This document shows, piece by piece, positions 6,127 to 29,983 of a stretch of DNA of 64,000 nucleotides. Below the pieces are notes generated by a model that was not told the origin of the DNA, ran no database searches, and saw only the letters and a program-made list of their open reading frames with translations. Location of the stretch: contig WRDR01000009.1 of NCBI GenBank assembly GCA_009779745.1, positions 840 to 64,839 of the forward strand. The letters are read 5' to 3'. Origin of the DNA: Alphaproteobacteria bacterium (GTDB taxonomy: Bacteria; Pseudomonadota; Alphaproteobacteria; UBA9219). Position 1 is the stretch's first letter; each line of letters begins with the position of its first letter. A program made the translations under genes and the position numbers.

Positions 6127-6399
6127 TTATCTGCCGAGGAAATCTATCCACCTGCGCCTGAACTTGTCTAAAACAGACGGTCTTCTCCGCCCTACTATCC
6201 ATGACCGTATCGCCCTTAACGCCGCTGCAAAAGAGTACCCTCTTCGTTCTATAATCCAGAAAGCCAGCATAACCACTACGACTACGCAAAACGTCCATAG
6301 TCTTGCGTGCAGCAGAAACAAAAACACAGCCGAAGCCGACCTCGCATCAAAGAAGAAAAAGCGAGCCGGTTTCTGAGTATTTCGCCAGTGTGAATCCAT
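6127..6399 (-). CDS. icmT: Dot/Icm type IVB secretion protein IcmT/TraK
   Basis: HWRNTQKPARFFFFDAR..FLLHARLWTF..ERRGYSF..ALR..R signature of IcmT/TraK; next to dotB/C/D. Confidence 0.85.
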   Translation of the reverse strand: MDSHWRNTQKPARFFFFDARSASAVFLFLLHARLWTFCVVVVVMLAFWIIERRGYSFAAALRAIRSWIVGRRRPSVLDKFRRRWIDFLGR

Positions 6400-6403
6400 A
6401 GTT

Positions 6404-6997
6404 TTATCCGTATTTCTTCCATTCAATAATATCCGCTACAGATACCTTTGTAAGCCCGTGCTTCTTTGAAAACTTCTCTAAATCTTCGCCTCTTGCCATT
6501 GTACCGTCTTCGTTTATTATCTCGCATATAACAGCAACCGGCGGCAATCCCGCCATTTCCATTAATTCCACTGCCGCTTCGGTATGCCCTTTTCTTTTGT
6601 TAAGCCCGCCCTGCACCGCTCTTAACGGGAACATATGTCCCGGCATGTAAAAATCCTCTGCCTTTGCCTCTTTATCCGCCAAACGCCTAGCAGTCTTTGT
6701 CCTGTCCCCAACAGAAATCCCGGTAGTCGTCCCCTCCTTATAATCCATGCTTATCAAAAATGCCGTATTATGCTTGTCCGTACTATCCTCTACCATAAGC
6801 CTCAGTCCCATTTTTTCCGCCAGCTCATACTTCATTGGCACGCACACCAAACCTTTTGCATGAGTTATCATGAAATTCATCTGCTCTTCCGTTATCAGCA
6901 CTGCGCTTGCTACTATGTCTCCTTCGTCCTCTCTGTTATTATCATCAGTTACGACTAACAGCTTTCCAGCTTTTAAGTCTTCTATTGCTTTTTTCAT
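6404..6997 (-). CDS. ribB: 3,4-dihydroxy-2-butanone-4-phosphate synthase
   Basis: DDNNREDEGD, TTTGIS..DR, PGHMFPL, GHTEAAV, VICEI. Confidence 0.96.
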   Translation of the reverse strand: MKKAIEDLKAGKLLVVTDDNNREDEGDIVASAVLITEEQMNFMITHAKGLVCVPMKYELAEKMGLRLMVEDSTDKHNTAFLISMDYKEGTTTGISVGDRTKTARRLADKEAKAEDFYMPGHMFPLRAVQGGLNKRKGHTEAAVELMEMAGLPPVAVICEIINEDGTMARGEDLEKFSKKHGLTKVSVADIIEWKKYG

Positions 6998-7078
6998 TTT
7001 TTTGCTCTTTTGAATTTTTATCCACTCGCAAACCTTCTACCCAGATTATCATAATATTATTATAGCCTGATAAGATGA

Positions 7079-26924: not shown

Positions 26925-27998
26925 ACTATCCTCCGTCCTGATGATTTCCACATTCACTTGCGGGAAGGAGCTTTGTTAAGGGCTGTTCTTCCCTTTACTG
27001 CCAGTGTTTTTTCCAGGGCTATTTTAATGCCCAATCTATCTTCGCCGCTTGTTTCCGTACCGCACGTTCAGGCCTACAGAAACTTTGTTGAAGAAGAACT
27101 CGCTTTGCTGAATCAGAAAAATTTTATTCCTCTGTTTACTCTGTATCTGCGGCACGATACTAATCTTAAAGAGCTTGCTGACGGCTATAAAAACAATGTC
27201 TTCTTTGCAGGAAAATTATATCCGTCAAATATTACTACGAACTCTGCTCTTGGGTTTCAGGATATTGCTTCCGTGTATCCTGTTTTCGAGGCAATGGAAA
27301 AATTAGACATTCCTCTTCTTGTACACGGCGAGACTCCGGATCCGGACGTTGATATTTTCGATAGAGAGTCCGTGTTCATAGACAAGTCTCTTGTGCCTAT
27401 AAGAAAGCGTTTTCCTAACCTCAGAATAACTTTGGAGCATATCACTACTTCTCATGCTGTCGACTATGTGCTGTCAGAGTATTCCCCGGATAAGCCTTTA
27501 AAGACAGGAGCTACTATTACTCCGCACCACCTGCACATCAACAGGACCGATATTTTTTCAGGCGGACTTAACCCTCATTACTACTGTATGCCCATAGCCA
27601 AAAGAGAAGAACACAGGAAAGCTGTTGTGCAAGCGGCAGTGTCGGGATTAGCTCCTTTTTTTCTAGGAACAGATTCCGCTCCTCATGTCCGCACTAGGAA
27701 AGAATCCGGCTTTGGCAGTGCCGGTATTTTCAATGCTCCTTCTGCATTAGCACTTTACGCTCAGATTTTTGATGATGAACAAAAACTGCATAACCTAGAG
27801 ACTTTCGCTTCTAGAAACGGAGCCTTGTTTTACGGTTTGCCGCTGTCTTCCGATACATTAACTCTTAAAAAAGAGTTAACTTCAGAAAAAACTGACGATA
27901 TTAAGCCGATTTTAACTGAAGATATGCAAGAATTAGTACAGTTTATTTCTCCAAAACAAGTTTTTTGGAATGGAAAATGGAAAATGAATTATTTTTAA
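26853..27998 (+). CDS. pyrC: dihydroorotase (type II)
   Basis: PDDFHIHLR, MPNL, KLYP..TTNS, LVHGE, EHITT, FLGTDSAPH; exact start lies within the repeat. Confidence 0.95.
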   Translation: MENGKWKMENGVPNSTLHTPHSTLTILRPDDFHIHLREGALLRAVLPFTASVFSRAILMPNLSSPLVSVPHVQAYRNFVEEELALLNQKNFIPLFTLYLRHDTNLKELADGYKNNVFFAGKLYPSNITTNSALGFQDIASVYPVFEAMEKLDIPLLVHGETPDPDVDIFDRESVFIDKSLVPIRKRFPNLRITLEHITTSHAVDYVLSEYSPDKPLKTGATITPHHLHINRTDIFSGGLNPHYYCMPIAKREEHRKAVVQAAVSGLAPFFLGTDSAPHVRTRKESGFGSAGIFNAPSALALYAQIFDDEQKLHNLETFASRNGALFYGLPLSSDTLTLKKELTSEKTDDIKPILTEDMQELVQFISPKQVFWNGKWKMNYF

Positions 27999-28013
27999 GA
28001 AAAAGGAAAAAAA

Positions 28014-28976
28014 ATGTCAGTAGTTCTTAACGACTTGCCTTTTGTCGATGTTTACGTAAGACTGGATCAACATGATAAGGCTCTGTACCGCTCTCTAATC
28101 CGAGCAGACAGCAAAGTCAGCTTGTTTGTTCCTCCGGAATTTCAGGATTCCATAAATCGCTTTGCAGATGCCATAAAAGAGAAAATGGGCGACAGAGTCG
28201 ACGGTGCCATTACTTTCGAAGGCGTAAGATGCCGCCTTTCCAGATCTCATCTCTCGGACGGCACTACTTGGGTTTGCGCCAGAAGAATCAATACTGTTCT
28301 GCCGGACATCAACAAACTAAATCTGCCTTCCGAAGTTGTAAATCACATGCTCGGCTTGGGCAAAAGAGACGGTTTGATTCTTATTTCGGGTCCGACAGGA
28401 CACGGAAAAACTACGACTGCAGTAGCTTTGCTTTCATACTATCTTAAAACTTACGGCGGCACTGCGGTTACTATTGAAGACCCTTGCGAGTTCATTATGC
28501 ACGGAAGGCACGGCGAAAAAGGTCAGTGCTTCCAAAATGAAGTTGAAAAAGAAGAGGACTGGGCTCTAGGCTTGAAAAGAGCTATGCGCTGGGCTCCCAA
28601 CTACATTTACGTAGGAGAGATTCGTACTCCGGCTGCTGCGGAACAGCTTCTAAGAGCCGCTACTACGGGACACTTGGTGATGACTACAGTTCACGCAGGT
28701 GCTATGGAAGAAGCTCTTATGGGTATTGTGTTTTTGGCTGAACAATCTATGGGATCCGGAGTTCACAATATGCTGGCTACCGGTCTTACCGCTCTTGTGA
28801 ATCAGTCTATGGGCGAGGCCGGCATGAATATGAAGTATGTGTTCACTGAAGAAAATGCTCCCGGAGATCCCATACGCGCTCTTATCAGAGAAGACAAGAT
28901 AGGTATGATGTCTACATACGTAGATAGGGCTGCCGCCAGACTTTCTATGGCAGCGGAACGAAGGAGGTCTACATGA
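28014..28976 (+). CDS. PilT/PilU-like ATPase, copy 1
   Basis: GPTGHGKTTT, TIEDP.E, YVGEIR, TGHLVMTTVHA, PIRALIRE (AIRNLIRE-like). Confidence 0.85.
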   Translation: MSVVLNDLPFVDVYVRLDQHDKALYRSLIRADSKVSLFVPPEFQDSINRFADAIKEKMGDRVDGAITFEGVRCRLSRSHLSDGTTWVCARRINTVLPDINKLNLPSEVVNHMLGLGKRDGLILISGPTGHGKTTTAVALLSYYLKTYGGTAVTIEDPCEFIMHGRHGEKGQCFQNEVEKEEDWALGLKRAMRWAPNYIYVGEIRTPAAAEQLLRAATTGHLVMTTVHAGAMEEALMGIVFLAEQSMGSGVHNMLATGLTALVNQSMGEAGMNMKYVFTEENAPGDPIRALIREDKIGMMSTYVDRAAARLSMAAERRRST

Positions 28977-29983
28977 CTCTATTGAACCTGAATAACTGCA
29001 ATCCAAAAGGAAAAGCTCTTAAAGACTTGCCTTTCATGGATTTGTACGTGCGCATAGACGCTGCGGGACTGGGACAGGCACGCTATCGTTCTCCGGCCAG
29101 AGACTACAGCAATAATTGGACTAAGGTATTGCCGGAAAAATATTTTAAAGAAACATATGAAATAGCGCAAAGGCTGATTTCAGCCATAGACGATCCGGAC
29201 GCATCTTTTGAGTATGACGGCGTGAGATTCAGAAAGTCTCAGCAGTACCTTGCGAACGGTCAGATCTGGAGCATACTAAGACGCATTAACGCAAGAGTAG
29301 CTGCGCTTGAAGAGTTGTCCGTTATGCCGAAACTCTTGAACGTTTTGCGCAAAATGGGACAAAGAGACGGCTTGATTCTTATTTCGGGTCCGACAGGACA
29401 CGGAAAAACTACTATGGCATTTTCGCTGCTGGCAGATTATTTGTCAAAGCTGGGCGGCGTTGGGATTACTATTGAAGATCCTGTCGAGTATGCTCTGGAC
29501 GGACCGGTAGGAGAATACGGCTACTGTTATCAGGTAGAAGTAGAAGATGAAGACTGGACTACTCCGCTGAAAAGAGCTTTGCGCTGGACTCCAAGATATT
29601 TGCTGGTCGGCGAGGTTCGTACTCCAAGAACTGCAGAGCAGATTCTAAGAGCGGCGACTACAGGACACTTAGTCATCACTACCATACACGCAGGTTCTGT
29701 GGAGGAAAGCATCATGGGGCTTCTGCATTTAGCTGACCAAGAAACAGGAGGAGCTGCCAAATACATGCTGGCGCAAGGATTGACTGCCGCGTGGAGCCAG
29801 ACGCTTACTTCTACGGGTCCGTACCTGCGATACATTTTTACTGAGGAAAACAACAACGGAGATCCGGTACGCGCTCTTATCAGAGACAACAAAGTCGGTA
29901 TGATAAACAGCTACATAGACCAGCAAGCAGCCAGAACAAATTCTCCTTTAACCATTTCGCCTATTACGGGGAAGAGGTTCTGA
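28973..29983 (+). CDS. PilT/PilU-like ATPase, copy 2
   Basis: GPTGHGKTT, TIEDPVE, LVGEVR, TGHLVITTIHA, PVRALIRD. Confidence 0.85.
   Translation: MTLLNLNNCNPKGKALKDLPFMDLYVRIDAAGLGQARYRSPARDYSNNWTKVLPEKYFKETYEIAQRLISAIDDPDASFEYDGVRFRKSQQYLANGQIWSILRRINARVAALEELSVMPKLLNVLRKMGQRDGLILISGPTGHGKTTMAFSLLADYLSKLGGVGITIEDPVEYALDGPVGEYGYCYQVEVEDEDWTTPLKRALRWTPRYLLVGEVRTPRTAEQILRAATTGHLVITTIHAGSVEESIMGLLHLADQETGGAAKYMLAQGLTAAWSQTLTSTGPYLRYIFTEENNNGDPVRALIRDNKVGMINSYIDQQAARTNSPLTISPITGKRF

What the first reader, a model, noticed from the sequence alone, without database searches (positions are those of the whole stretch)
6127..29983. Chromosomally domesticated Dot/Icm T4BSS plus type IVb pilus (IncI-like pairing) embedded among core genes
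Seen: SLT-dotD-dotC-dotB-icmT and a pilL/N/O/P/Q/R-like operon lie within about 20 kb. They run straight into ribB, yejA-truB-ruvCAB and prfB-fabF, carry the host heptamer repeats, and have no integrase, relaxase or att-like ends in the window. Known: IncI plasmids such as R64 pair a Dot/Icm-related Tra system with a thin type IVb pilus, and Legionella/Coxiella use Dot/Icm for effector delivery. Inference: this alphaproteobacterium has a vertically inherited attach-and-inject apparatus (predatory, episymbiotic or host-directed) rather than a conjugative element. The pilin, prepilin peptidase and dotA/G/H/L/O would have to lie elsewhere.
Basis: partly seen in the sequence, partly recalled or inferred. 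Interest (0 to 1): 0.75.

Follow-up and report, generated by a model that had tools for sequence, protein, structure and literature searches.

The report
Chromosomal Dot/Icm secretion system plus pilus
An uncultured termite-gut alphaproteobacterium and its whole order carry, as core chromosomal genes, a complete Legionella/IncI-type type IVB secretion machine joined to a type IVb pilus, which in this genome has been broken into at least eight pieces scattered among housekeeping genes.

Summary
The window holds icmT, dotB, dotC, dotD and a lytic transglycosylase, then pilL-N-O-P-Q-R and two PilT-like ATPases. All lie among housekeeping genes, with no integrase or relaxase among the 68 window ORFs scanned.

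The predicted missing parts lie on six other contigs, each flanked by core genes: dotA (two copies), dotG, dotH, dotI (two copies), dotL, dotM, dotN, dotO and traQ/icmC.

Conservation among 41 genomes of the same order (3 families, 13 genera):
- DotH in 40.
- DotO in 37.
- PilQ in 40.
- Each is in 29 of 29 high-quality genomes.

In other families the genes form one roughly 35-kb locus, gcrA-dotI…dotL…SLT-dotDCB-icmT-pilL…pilR. Its blocks are colinear with an IncI plasmid. This genus has shattered the locus.

A small NikA/MOBP relaxase module exists, but on a separate low-GC integrase island. It is patchy (17 of 41 genomes) and multi-copy.

Protein injection into prey or host is inferred, not shown.

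In the papers I searched, the only prior notice is one sentence and one supplementary table (Needham 2022). The Micavibrio genome paper reported no type IV system.

The parts
6127..6426 (-). icmT/traK (99 aa)
   Evidence: NF038220 IcmT_TraK, 85 bits, cut-off 40. It directly follows dotB in 7 of 7 related loci.
6404..6997 (-). ribB, a housekeeping gene lodged between dotB and icmT
   Evidence: PF00926, 266.6 bits. It is absent from this position in 7 of 7 related loci. A contig of run X1 bridges 5900-8775.
7079..8371 (-). dotB/traJ secretion ATPase (430 aa)
   Evidence: TIGR02524, 407.5 bits (cut-off 463); TraJ scores 245. It is 46% identical to the annotated dotB of a Legionella adelaidensis record. 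phmmer E = 2.9e-110.
8347..9435 (-). dotC/traI lipoprotein gene, with one in-frame stop at 9028-9030 in the window sequence
   Evidence: PF16932, 235 bits, for 8347-8979. It reads as one frame with one stop, with a signal peptide at the N-terminus. Contigs of 3 of 3 runs read T instead of A at 9030.
9410..9937 (-). dotD/traH lipoprotein
   Evidence: PF16816, 87.3 bits. NF033882, 96 bits, under its cut-off of 140.
10055..10369 (-). unknown 104-aa ORF between SLT and dotD
   Evidence: No family found. Assigned by position only.
10372..10830 (-). lytic transglycosylase (SLT/TrbN-like)
   Evidence: PF01464. NF010463 TrbN, 84 bits, under its cut-off. It precedes dotD in related loci. The IncI PilT transglycosylase hits it at E = 5e-6.
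13536..14366 (+). conserved unknown 276-aa protein, inverted here; in relatives it sits directly upstream of SLT
   Evidence: tblastn shows 23-55% identity immediately before SLT in 5 of 7 DotB loci, in G028, G025 and G022, and in G265. No family found. The atlas search was uninformative.
16828..17925 (-). pilR platform protein (T2SSF)
   Evidence: PF00482, 94 bits. IncI PilR phmmer E = 6e-38.
17922..20675 (-). pilQ assembly ATPase (917-aa ORF; conserved part from about residue 292)
   Evidence: PF00437, 172 bits. Ortholog in 40 of 41 relatives, with ORFs of about 617-750 aa (full-length matches). IncI PilQ E = 1.6e-43.
20774..21730 (-). pilP-like
   Evidence: TIGR03021, 31.5 bits, cut-off 34.65. 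Its position matches that in the IncI operon.
21699..22931 (-). pilO
   Evidence: PF06864, 62.3 bits, cut-off 26.7.
22931..24676 (-). pilN secretin
   Evidence: TIGR02520, 255.6 bits (cut-off 287.65); PF00263 and PF07655. IncI PilN E = 4e-38.
24688..25830 (-). pilL (TcpQ-domain protein)
   Evidence: PF10671, 59 bits. It follows icmT in 7 of 7 related loci, including those where pilN-R are not adjacent.
28014..28976 (+). PilT-like ATPase 1 (320 aa)
   Evidence: TIGR01420, 131.9 bits, under its cut-off of 319. It is the tandem partner of the next gene across the order.
28973..29983 (+). PilT-like ATPase 2 (336 aa)
   Evidence: TIGR01420, 128 bits. Found in 39 of 41 relatives, usually as a tandem pair. 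It sits next to pilR-pilS in G087.

Best explanation
The window holds two fragments of a complete, chromosomally fixed type IVB secretion system (MPF-I, Dot/Icm class) and of the type IVb pilus that belongs to it.

The ancestor of this alphaproteobacterial order carried both as a single locus beside gcrA: dotI-dotI'-dotH-dotG-x-traQ-x-x-dotN-dotO-dotM-dotL ... x-SLT-dotD-dotC-dotB-icmT-pilL-N-O-P-Q-R(-pilS). Within each block the gene order matches an IncI conjugative plasmid. The locus has no relaxosome, no exclusion gene and no integrase. It has been inherited vertically ever since.

In the genus of this genome, rearrangements broke the locus into at least eight pieces. These now sit inside housekeeping neighbourhoods:
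- dotB-ribB-icmT
- ftsB-dotA-dotA-ftsZ
- purS-dotL
- parB-dotM-mreC
- dotH-dotG before secA
- gcrA-dotI-dotI
- dotO beside an amidase gene
- traQ..dotN after accBC

The genes stay intact.

Inferred mechanism:
- The pilus (PilQ motor, PilN secretin, PilS-type pilins, two PilT-like ATPases) attaches the cell to a target cell and pulls it close.
- The DotL/M/N coupling complex and the DotO and DotB ATPases then drive proteins through the DotC/D/H/G core complex into that target.
- The target may be a prey bacterium or a eukaryotic host in the termite gut.

What is shown: gene content, completeness, order-wide conservation, colinearity and the lack of linkage to a relaxase. What is inferred: protein translocation, the identity of the target, and cooperation between pilus and secretion system.
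For: **Housekeeping flanks on both sides of every piece:**

**Order-wide presence:**
- DotH in 40 of 41 genomes.
- DotO in 37 of 41 genomes.
- PilQ in 40 of 41 genomes.
- PilT-like pair in 39 of 41 genomes.
- Each is in 29 of 29 genomes that are at least 90% complete.
- All misses are in genomes under 90% complete.

**Contiguous locus in relatives:**
- One contiguous locus in G028 (family f3), G025 (f2) and G022 (f1, another genus).
- Two blocks in G021.
- dot and pil blocks fused in 4 of 7 DotB loci; pilL follows icmT in 7 of 7.
- Two PilS genes follow pilR in L027.

**DotO tree of 58 rows:**
- All 21 family labels need only 20 changes, the minimum possible.
- f1 (22 rows) forms one clade with SH-aLRT 99.
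- The genus forms one clade with SH-aLRT 100.

**No mobile-element genes nearby:** no integrase, relaxase or transposase among 33 flanking ORFs of three related loci, nor among the 68 window ORFs.

**Relaxase elsewhere:** the only relaxase found lies on a separate island and is patchy.

**Colinearity with an annotated IncI-gamma/K1 plasmid:**. Of 40 of its proteins, 15 find the expected orthologs.

**Closer to secretion-type than to IncI-type sequences:**
- DotB scores 407 bits on the DotB model against 245 on TraJ.
- DotO is 26% identical to IncI TraU.
- DotO gives phmmer E = 2.6e-218 against the IcmB-position ATPase of a Piscirickettsia salmonis Dot/Icm cluster.
Against: No effector, translocation signal or target is known.

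The Legionella-type adaptors were not found:
- IcmW: phmmer with two queries found nothing.
- IcmS: Pfam found nothing, but the control rang nowhere, so this is uninformative.
- IcmV and IcmX queries also found nothing.

Several models score below their curated equivalog cut-offs (DotB, DotD, DotM, DotN, PilN, PilP), so orthology of function is not guaranteed.

A T4CP together with IncI-like colinearity is equally what a DNA-transfer machine would show. G000 does carry a NikA-like/MOBP relaxase module and no other T4SS.

The window sequence has an in-frame stop in dotC, although the public contigs do not.

The dot and pil blocks in this window are joined across two repeat-rich points (about 11.7 kb and 15.65 kb). 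None of the listed public contig pieces spans either point (216 more pieces were not shown).

The lifestyle of this organism is unknown. The label 'Micavibrio sp.' on related records is the depositors' label.
Confidence: 0.6

Rival explanations
1. The apparatus is primarily a resident conjugation or mobilisation machine. Under this reading, a chromosomal MPF-I system and its mating pilus serve in trans the small integrative mobilisable islands that carry only an integrase, a NikA-like protein and a short MOBP relaxase.
For: - The blocks are colinear with an IncI plasmid, including the mating-type thin-pilus genes.
- A T4CP (DotL/TrbC) is present.
- G000 has a NikA-like protein plus a PF03432 relaxase (251 aa) beside an rci-like integrase and low-GC cargo at about C1:167.9-180 kb.
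- No VirB4-type T4SS and no second T4CP were found that could serve this island.
- Relaxase homologs reach 18 matches in one relative.
Against: - The relaxase was found in only 17 of 41 relatives (12 of 29 high-quality genomes), whereas the T4BSS is in 29 of 29.
- No relaxase, oriT-type module or exclusion gene lies in or beside the locus in any genome examined.
- A machine kept under selection in genomes without any cognate relaxase needs another job.
- Only three relaxase families were searched (PF03432, PF03389 and PF08751). MOBH, MOBV, MOBC and MOBT were not searched.
Confidence: 0.2
2. The genes are a decaying remnant of an ancient integrated IncI-like element, and are no longer a working machine.
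For: - The genes are scattered.
- ribB is inserted between dotB and icmT.
- The window sequence has an in-frame stop in dotC.
- pilM and several IncI genes were not detected.
Against: - Every core gene is an open frame without stops in G000, and in all but two of the DotO matches in relatives.
- DotO is 60-78% identical across three families, with one full-length copy per genome.
- The dotC stop is contradicted by contigs of 3 of 3 runs.
- The set is complete: DotA, B, C, D, G, H, I, L, M, N, O, IcmT and TraQ.
Confidence: 0.05
3. The picture is an assembly or binning artefact. Under this reading, the dot and pil genes belong to another organism or to a plasmid that was binned with this genome, and the scattering comes from chimeric contigs.
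For: - The genome is a 35-contig metagenome assembly.
- No listed piece of the public contigs spans two repeat points inside the region (216 more pieces were not shown).
Against: - Each of the eight pieces lies inside a contig between housekeeping genes.
- Estimated contamination is 0.03%.
- 40 relatives carry the same genes.
- Public contigs from two studies reproduce 8002-11692, 13313-15653 and 17124-24409 at 95-100% identity.
Confidence: 0.03

Closest known systems
Dot/Icm type IVB secretion system of Legionella and Coxiella (and Piscirickettsia salmonis)
   Same: - The core parts are the same: DotA, B, C, D, G, H, I (with a second DotI paralog), L, M, N, O, IcmT and IcmC/TraQ-like.
- It is chromosomal, with no linked relaxase.
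- It is conserved across a whole lineage.
- The sequences are nearer to these systems than to IncI. DotB is 46% identical to Legionella adelaidensis dotB, and DotO gives E = 2.6e-218 against the P. salmonis homolog.
   Different: - It is alphaproteobacterial, not gammaproteobacterial.
- It keeps the IncI-style type IVb pilus operon, fused to dotDCB-icmT.
- IcmS, IcmW, IcmV and IcmX were not found (these negatives are weak).
- It has two DotA paralogs.
- Its effectors and its target are unknown.
- In this genus it is dispersed into at least eight loci. From recall, Legionella has two regions and Coxiella one.
IncI1-type conjugative transfer region with thin type IVb pilus (R64 type; compared here with NZ_CP060951.1)
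   Same: - It pairs an MPF-I system with a pilL-N-O-P-Q-R(-S) pilus operon.
- Gene order within blocks is the same: traH-I-J-K, traM-N-O-P-Q-R-S-T-U and pilL..pilS (compared).
- 15 of 40 plasmid proteins hit the expected orthologs.
   Different: - There is no nikAB or oriT, no ExcA, no replicon, and no shufflon or Rci next to the pilus genes.
- PilM, PilI, PilU and PilV are not in the operon.
- Identity is low (TraU 26%).
- Inheritance is vertical and order-wide rather than plasmid-borne.
- Two PilT-like ATPases are added.
pT4SSi hits in seven marine Micavibrionales MAGs (Needham et al. 2022, PMC9418006, text and Supplementary Data 11)
   Same: MacSyFinder detected the same kind of system (traU, traI, traK, traM, traN, traO and others) in alphaproteobacterial MAGs classed as Micavibrionales. 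I read the passages and two table rows.
   Different: That paper records presence only. In the passages and rows I read, it says nothing on order-wide conservation, locus architecture, the fused pilus, the relaxase islands or the shattering.
Contact-dependent bacteria-killing T4SS (Xanthomonas/Lysobacter X-T4SS)
   Same: This is a possible functional analogue: a T4SS that injects toxic proteins into neighbouring bacteria. I saw these systems only as citations in the reference list of a review (PMC12428579); the rest is recall.
   Different: Those systems are VirB/D4 type IVA systems. No VirB4-type gene was found here. No toxin or immunity pairs linked to the locus were identified.

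Membership tests
Type IVB secretion system (MPF-I; TXSScan pT4SSi) | VirB4-family ATPase of the IcmB/DotO/TraU type | tested here: met
   C2:67649-70639, 996 aa. phmmer E = 2.6e-218 against the P. salmonis cluster ATPase. E = 1.4e-103 against annotated IncI TraU. 26% identity by tblastn.
Type IVB secretion system (MPF-I; TXSScan pT4SSi) | At least six MPF-I accessory genes (traI/DotC, traK/IcmT, traM/DotI, traN/DotH, traO/DotG, traQ, traY/DotA, trbA/DotM) | tested here: met
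   All eight were found:
- PF16932 and NF038220.
- PF11393, two copies.
- PF12293.
- PF03743.
- NF033883, 43.5 bits, under its cut-off of 80.
- TIGR04346, two copies, above its cut-off.
- NF033890, 174 bits, under its cut-off of 230.
Type IVB secretion system (MPF-I; TXSScan pT4SSi) | DotL/TrbC-type coupling protein | tested here: met
   C4:80617-82977. NF041447 TrbC_conju, 365 bits, under its cut-off of 800. phmmer E = 5.5e-129 against the P. salmonis protein. E = 5.4e-57 against IncI TrbC.
Type IVB secretion system (MPF-I; TXSScan pT4SSi) | No relaxase associated with the system (this separates protein secretion from conjugation) | tested here: met
   No relaxase lies in or beside any of the pieces or the related loci. 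One PF03432 relaxase lies on a separate island on C1. PF03389 and PF08751 gave no match. Other MOB families were not searched.
Type IVB secretion system (MPF-I; TXSScan pT4SSi) | Translocation of effector proteins into a target cell | not testable with these tools
   This needs reporter fusions or mutants. No RNA run holds the locus.
Legionellales Dot/Icm system in the narrow sense | IcmS/IcmW(/LvgA) adaptor chaperones, IcmX and IcmV | tested here: inconclusive
   phmmer with IcmV, IcmW and IcmX from Legionella adelaidensis and IcmW from P. salmonis gave no hit. Pfam IcmS gave no hit, but its control rang in no genome.
IncI-type conjugative element or ICE | Linked relaxosome (NikA/NikB, oriT), integrase or replicon, and patchy distribution | tested here: not met
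   No such genes lie in the locus. The system is present in 29 of 29 high-quality genomes of the order. Family-level groups are recovered on the DotO tree.
Type IVb pilus (R64 PilL-V class) | PilN-type secretin, PilO, PilP, PilQ ATPase, PilR platform and PilL in one operon | tested here: met
   PilN and PilP score just under their equivalog cut-offs. The order matches the annotated IncI operon, except that pilM is missing. phmmer from the IncI proteins hits PilL, N, O, Q and R.
Type IVb pilus (R64 PilL-V class) | PilS-type major pilin and a prepilin peptidase | tested here: met
   Neither is in the operon. The pilins were found by phmmer with PilS (PF08805) proteins from a relative:
- C6:41882-42505, E = 2.5e-19.
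- C7:59018-59800, E = 8e-16.
- Others on C7.

N_methyl motifs are present. The peptidase A24 gene is at C18:674-1459.
Type IVb pilus (R64 PilL-V class) | PilV tip adhesin with shufflon and Rci | tested here: inconclusive
   IncI PilV gave no phmmer hit. A 510-aa pilin-like protein with a Peptidase_S74 domain at C7:72735-74267 could be a tip protein. No shufflon was looked for.

The most novel reading that the evidence does not exclude
The fused T4BSS and type IVb pilus locus is the missing attach-and-inject organ of Micavibrio-like alphaproteobacteria. On this reading it is an ancient, vertically inherited effector-delivery system aimed at prey bacteria or gut protists.

It is shared by a deep clade that spans several alphaproteobacterial orders. 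In the DotO tree, 48 rows from 16 families form one clade with 100% support.

It would have been domesticated from an IncI-like ancestor independently of the Legionellales.

In this genus it works even though its operons are shattered into at least eight chromosomal sites, which would imply a trans-acting regulon.
Probability: 0.3. Interest if true: 0.9.

Novelty: new variant of a known kind. Interest (0 to 1): 0.72.

Why it matters
The reviews I read in passages treat protein-secreting type IVB systems as a hallmark of intracellular Gammaproteobacteria such as Legionella, Coxiella and Piscirickettsia (PMC11338181 and PMC8896642).

[quoted passage not shown] How such predators kill and drain prey is still open.

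A complete T4BSS that is core to a whole order of Micavibrio-like bacteria, and to further alphaproteobacterial families, gives a concrete and testable candidate machine.

It is also a second, independent example of a conjugation-type MPF-I system becoming a fixed chromosomal organ. Here it is caught with its mating pilus still attached, and in this genus with its operons dispersed. That makes it useful for studying how such systems are domesticated and regulated.

The scattering also explains why cluster-based detectors, and the original annotation, could miss the system.

Tried and rejected
- **Pfam DotA (PF11388):** no match in G000, and the control rang nowhere. DotA was then found by phmmer and by TIGR04346.
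- **Legionella region II genes:** a DotH search of the plasmid collection found none.
- **IcmS, IcmW, IcmV and IcmX:** nothing found. These negatives are weak.
- **Relatedness of T4BSS-positive lineages:** I tried ranking SecA identity across 401 class genomes. Identities saturate at 60-65%, so the test was not decisive.
- **Expression:** no RNA holder is listed for window 6127-15900, so nothing can be said about expression.
- **Read laying:** only short contigs were available. No listed piece spans about 11.7 kb or 15.65 kb (216 more were not shown). 'Joints' at the heptamer repeats have sides of 20-21 letters and were disregarded.
- **Atlas search of the conserved 276-aa unknown:** no usable hit; the model's pLDDT was 0.45.
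- **Pfam at E up to 0.01 on ten further unknown ORFs of the locus:** only weak hints. These were a thioredoxin/TraF-like hit after SLT in G028 and a TrbC/VirB2-like hit for the 128-aa ORF at E = 0.002.
- **Pasternak 2014 (PMC3930308):** not held.
- **Rejected reading, 'ICE bounded by integrase':** the integrase-like genes at C4:85993-87180, C1:167881-169176 and C9:65199-66440 do not bracket any dot or pil block.

Full report
**What is in the window**

The window is G000:C9:840-64839. It belongs to a 1.477-Mb, 35-contig genome with about 43% GC, estimated 99.3% complete and 0.03% contaminated.

On the minus strand:
- ruvB, ruvA, ruvC, truB and an SBP_bac_5 gene
- icmT (6127-6426)
- ribB (6404-6997)
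- dotB (7079-8371)
- dotC (8347-8979)
- dotD (9410-9937)
- a 104-aa unknown ORF
- an SLT/TrbN-like transglycosylase (10372-10830)

Then come relB (plus strand), three unknown ORFs, a fabF-like gene and prfB. After these:
- pilR (16828-17925)
- pilQ (17922-20675)
- a pilP-like gene
- pilO
- pilN
- pilL (24688-25830)

On the plus strand follow ndk, pyrC and two PilT-like ATPases (28014-29983).

Several hits score below their curated equivalog cut-offs: DotB (407 against 463), DotD, PilN (255.6 against 287.65) and PilP. They are family members, not proven equivalents.

The remaining 32 ORFs, from 34 to 64 kb, are housekeeping genes, including dnaA and flagellar genes. No integrase, relaxase or transposase family was seen in the window.

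The 135-aa 'unknown' ORF upstream of dotC is in the same frame as dotC. One stop at 9028-9030 separates them, and the ORF supplies a signal peptide. Contigs of all three public runs read T instead of A at 9030, which removes that stop. DotC is therefore most likely intact in the population.

**The rest of the machine**

The sources were:
- family searches of the whole genome;
- phmmer with proteins translated from an annotated Legionella adelaidensis record;
- phmmer with proteins from a Piscirickettsia salmonis plasmid Dot/Icm cluster;
- NCBIfam scans of 45 neighbouring ORFs.

Together these gave:
- two DotI paralogs at C10:2920-4224, between a phasin gene and a GcrA-like gene;
- DotH and DotG at C6:21710-24275, between der/MAPEG and an unknown ORF plus secA;
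- DotM at C6:31985-33196, between parB and mreC;
- DotL at C4:80617-82977, after purC-purS;
- DotO at C2:67649-70639, between gpsA and a clpA-like fragment on one side and an amidase gene on the other;
- two tandem DotA genes at C14:23161-29051, between eno-ftsB and ftsZ;
- a TraQ/IcmC-like gene, two small ORFs and DotN at C11:52942-55535, after accB-accC.

PilS-like pilins, a prepilin peptidase next to murJ, and a further T2SSE ATPase also stand alone among core genes.

The system is split into at least eight places.

**Which organism**

A GcrA-like gene and a CcrM-type methylase fit an alphaproteobacterium.

The seven closest DotB loci in the species-representative genome collection (61-74% identity) carry these depositor titles:
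- 'Micavibrio sp.': 3 of 7
- 'Alphaproteobacteria bacterium': 3 of 7
- 'uncultured Rickettsiales bacterium': 1 of 7

These are labels, not a placement, and I could not name the order.

Three DNA runs from two studies, all labelled termite gut metagenome, hold 95-99% of the sampled words of window 6127-15900. One of them may be the source of the assembly.

**Vertical inheritance**

I searched 41 genomes of the same order, counting G000. They cover 3 families and 13 genera.

| Gene | Genomes with a match | High-quality genomes with a match |
|---|---|---|
| DotH | 40 of 41 | 29 of 29 |
| DotO | 37 of 41 | 29 of 29 |
| PilQ | 40 of 41 | 29 of 29 |
| PilT-like pair | 39 of 41 | 29 of 29 |

All genomes lacking a match are under 90% complete. 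Each genome has a single full-length copy, apart from split fragments.

I built a DotO tree of 58 rows. The method was quick IQ-TREE with LG+G4 and SH-aLRT support only, rooted on a single IncI TraU row, and several outgroup branches are long. The tool reported the following:
- Every one of the 21 family labels falls on one side of a branch. This needs 20 changes, the minimum possible. Shuffled labels gave a mean of 35.4 changes, and 0 of 200 shuffles were as low.
- Family f1 (22 rows) has 99% support, and the genus has 100%.
- f1 and f3 are sisters, with 99% support.

Rows left out of the tree:
- partial or interrupted DotO genes (G018, G034, G002, G006, G038);
- five matches for which no locus was issued (G031, G025, G033, G027, G035);
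- the second copy in G046;
- G080.

**Ancestral architecture**

I ran tblastn with G000 proteins on fetched flanks.

G028 (family f3), G025 (f2) and G022 (f1, another genus) each carry one contiguous locus: gcrA, dotI, dotI', dotH, dotG, the 400-aa unknown, traQ, (small ORFs), dotN, dotO, dotM, dotL, a gap of about 5 kb, the 276-aa unknown, SLT, dotD, dotC, dotB, icmT, pilL and onward.

In G028 the gap holds a glycosyltransferase, an O-antigen-ligase-like gene and two unknown ORFs.

The PilQ coordinates in G028, G025, G027, G029, G031 and G033 lie 22-25 kb beyond DotO on the same contig.

Among the seven DotB loci:
- icmT is followed directly by pilL in 7 of 7.
- pilN-O-(P)-Q-R follows in 4 of 7.
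- L027 adds two PilS genes after pilR.

None of the 33 flanking ORFs scanned in three of these loci is an integrase, relaxase or transposase.

G021 has two blocks 20 kb apart. In G000's genus the pieces lie on different contigs, or in other combinations (coordinates).

The closest DotB locus, L023, still has dotB-icmT-pilL…pilR in a row. The ribB insertion and the separation of the dot and pil blocks are therefore recent.

One caveat applies. Inside the window, the joins at about 11.7 kb and at 15.65 kb rest on the original assembly, because no listed piece of the public contigs spans them (216 more pieces were not shown). The 15.65-kb point is a short repeat with about four times the local depth.

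**Relation to IncI and to Dot/Icm**

An annotated IncI-gamma/K1 plasmid has this order: pilL-M-N-O-P-Q-R-S-T-U-V, rci, traE-F-H-I-J-(K), traL-M-N-O-P-Q-R-S-T-U…Y, trbA-B-C, nikB.

Within each block the order is the same as in the alphaproteobacterial locus:
- traH-I-J-K corresponds to dotD-C-B-icmT.
- traM-N-O-P-Q-R-S-T-U corresponds to dotI-H-G-x-traQ-x-x-dotN-dotO.
- pilL…pilS matches.

The block order differs. The nik genes, excA, rci, pilM, pilU and pilV are missing from the locus.

phmmer from 40 plasmid proteins hits the expected G000 orthologs for 15 of them.

In sequence the system is nearer to the secretion-type relatives:
- DotB scores 407 bits on the DotB model and 245 on TraJ. Its best match in the plasmid collection is the annotated dotB of a Legionella adelaidensis record, at 46% identity.
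- DotO is 26% identical to IncI TraU and 44% identical to a Rhizobium megaplasmid gene.

**Relaxase**

PF03432 finds one 251-aa gene at C1:179286-180038. PF03389 and PF08751 find none. Other MOB families were not searched.

A NikA-like/MobC protein precedes this relaxase. Upstream lie about 8 kb of low-GC (0.34) orphan genes and an rci-like integrase at C1:167881-169176. Together these make up a small integrative mobilisable island.

Homologs of the relaxase occur in 17 of 41 relatives (12 of 29 high-quality genomes), with up to 18 matches in one genome. That is the pattern of a mobile element, unlike the T4BSS.

G000 has no VirB4-type gene (PF03135), and its only T4CP-like match is DotL. The island may therefore borrow the T4BSS. 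This forms the main rival, or a secondary function.

**Beyond the order**

In an even sample of 401 genomes of the class, DotH occurs in 29 (24 of 337 high-quality genomes). This count includes G000 and one genome flagged unpublished, G080, on which nothing else here rests.

Of 27 of these positives (26 outside the order plus two same-family genomes; G080 left out), 26 have DotO. Identity to G000's DotO falls into three bands:
- 56-70%: 21 genomes, two of them from G000's own family (69-70%) and 19 from 13 other families (56-65%).
- 48%: two families.
- 40%: one family, with 5-Mb genomes.

In the tree, 48 rows from 16 families form one clade with 100% support. This clade excludes the 48% group, the 40% group, the plasmid rows and the P. 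salmonis row.

Three such genomes show the same blocks. One of them, G087, also has pilN-O-Q-R, pilS and a PilT-like gene beside them.

Whether these families are each other's relatives on a species tree was not established.

**Literature**

I ran six full-text searches.

[quoted passage not shown] It describes islands with integrases and mobA/L-type mobilisation genes.
- **PMC9418006 (passages and two rows of Supplementary Data 11).** It notes that MacSyFinder found pT4SSi in seven marine Micavibrionales MAGs. This is the only prior notice I found.
- **PMC11338181 and PMC8896642 (passages).** Both discuss the T4BSS as a trait of Legionellales and allied Gammaproteobacteria.
- **PMC12428579 (passages).** This review of contact-dependent predation lists Micavibrio as epibiotic, without naming a secretion system in the passages I saw.
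- **Not seen.** Papers in subscription journals, and Pasternak 2014.

**Verdict**

The structure and the vertical inheritance are well supported. I put them at about 0.9.

Protein injection into a prey or host cell with pilus-mediated docking is the most likely function. I put the whole statement at about 0.6. No step of that mechanism was tested.

It is a new variant of a known kind: a T4BSS outside the Gammaproteobacteria that keeps its IncI-type pilus, is core to a lineage, and is here dispersed across the chromosome.

Noticed in passing
window 3999-61707 (for example 10013-10036, 10939-10967, 26850-26924, 36278-36309, 61674-61707): Short period-7 tandem arrays (AGTGTGG, AAAATGG, ACTCCAC, ATTTCAC and others) sit at many gene boundaries. 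One array builds the 'MENGKWKMENG' start of pyrC. Public contigs break, or show false joints, at these arrays.
   Followed up: partly
window 30114-32584: A low-GC islet (0.34-0.37) of three hydrophilic orphan ORFs lies just after the PilT-like genes. The first ORF has no match in 40 relatives. It does have a 39%-identical paralog at C1:170825-171829, inside the relaxase island.
   Followed up: partly
G000 C1:167881-180041 (L037): A putative integrative mobilisable island. It carries an rci-like integrase, about 8 kb of low-GC unknown genes, a GNAT gene, an HTH gene, a NikA-like/MobC protein and a 251-aa MOBP relaxase. A GTA-like portal and terminase lie a few kb further on.
   Followed up: partly
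G000 C9:65199-66440, about 360 bases beyond the window's end: A tyrosine-recombinase-like ORF (phmmer E = 6e-9 against IncI Rci) sits at the contig end. It is about 35 kb from the pil genes, with dnaA and flagellar genes in between.
   Followed up: no
window 36347-38469: The H+-pyrophosphatase gene is split into two adjacent ORFs covering profile positions 1-189 and 198-645. This is a frameshift, a pseudogene or a sequence error.
   Followed up: no
G000 C7:72735-74267 (L039:10735-12267): A 510-aa protein with a type IV pilin N-terminal methylation motif and a C-terminal Peptidase_S74 (tail-fibre chaperone) domain. It is a candidate pilus-tip adhesin.
   Followed up: no
G000 C7:55688-59800 and C6:30984-33196: mreB (418 aa, with an N-terminal extension) is separated from mreCD and flanked by pilin-like genes. 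dotM sits between parB and mreC.
   Followed up: no
G000 C2:71673-74255 (L030:12673-15255): An 860-aa protein ending in a pretoxin-HINT domain lies two genes from dotO, next to an HTH gene and an ISNCY transposase.
   Followed up: no
G000 C11:55610-56446 and C11:51648-52147: A 278-aa ORF with weak leucine-rich-repeat hits lies directly after dotN. A ParD/ParE toxin-antitoxin pair lies upstream of the traQ-like gene. A lone RelB antitoxin gene lies at window 11051-11362.
   Followed up: no
window about 15626-15688: A short multi-copy repeat lies between the fabF-like gene and prfB. Its contig depth is about four times the local level in all three runs, and it has many loose ends. prfB's ORF lacks the first 27 profile positions, as expected for its programmed frameshift.
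   Followed up: no
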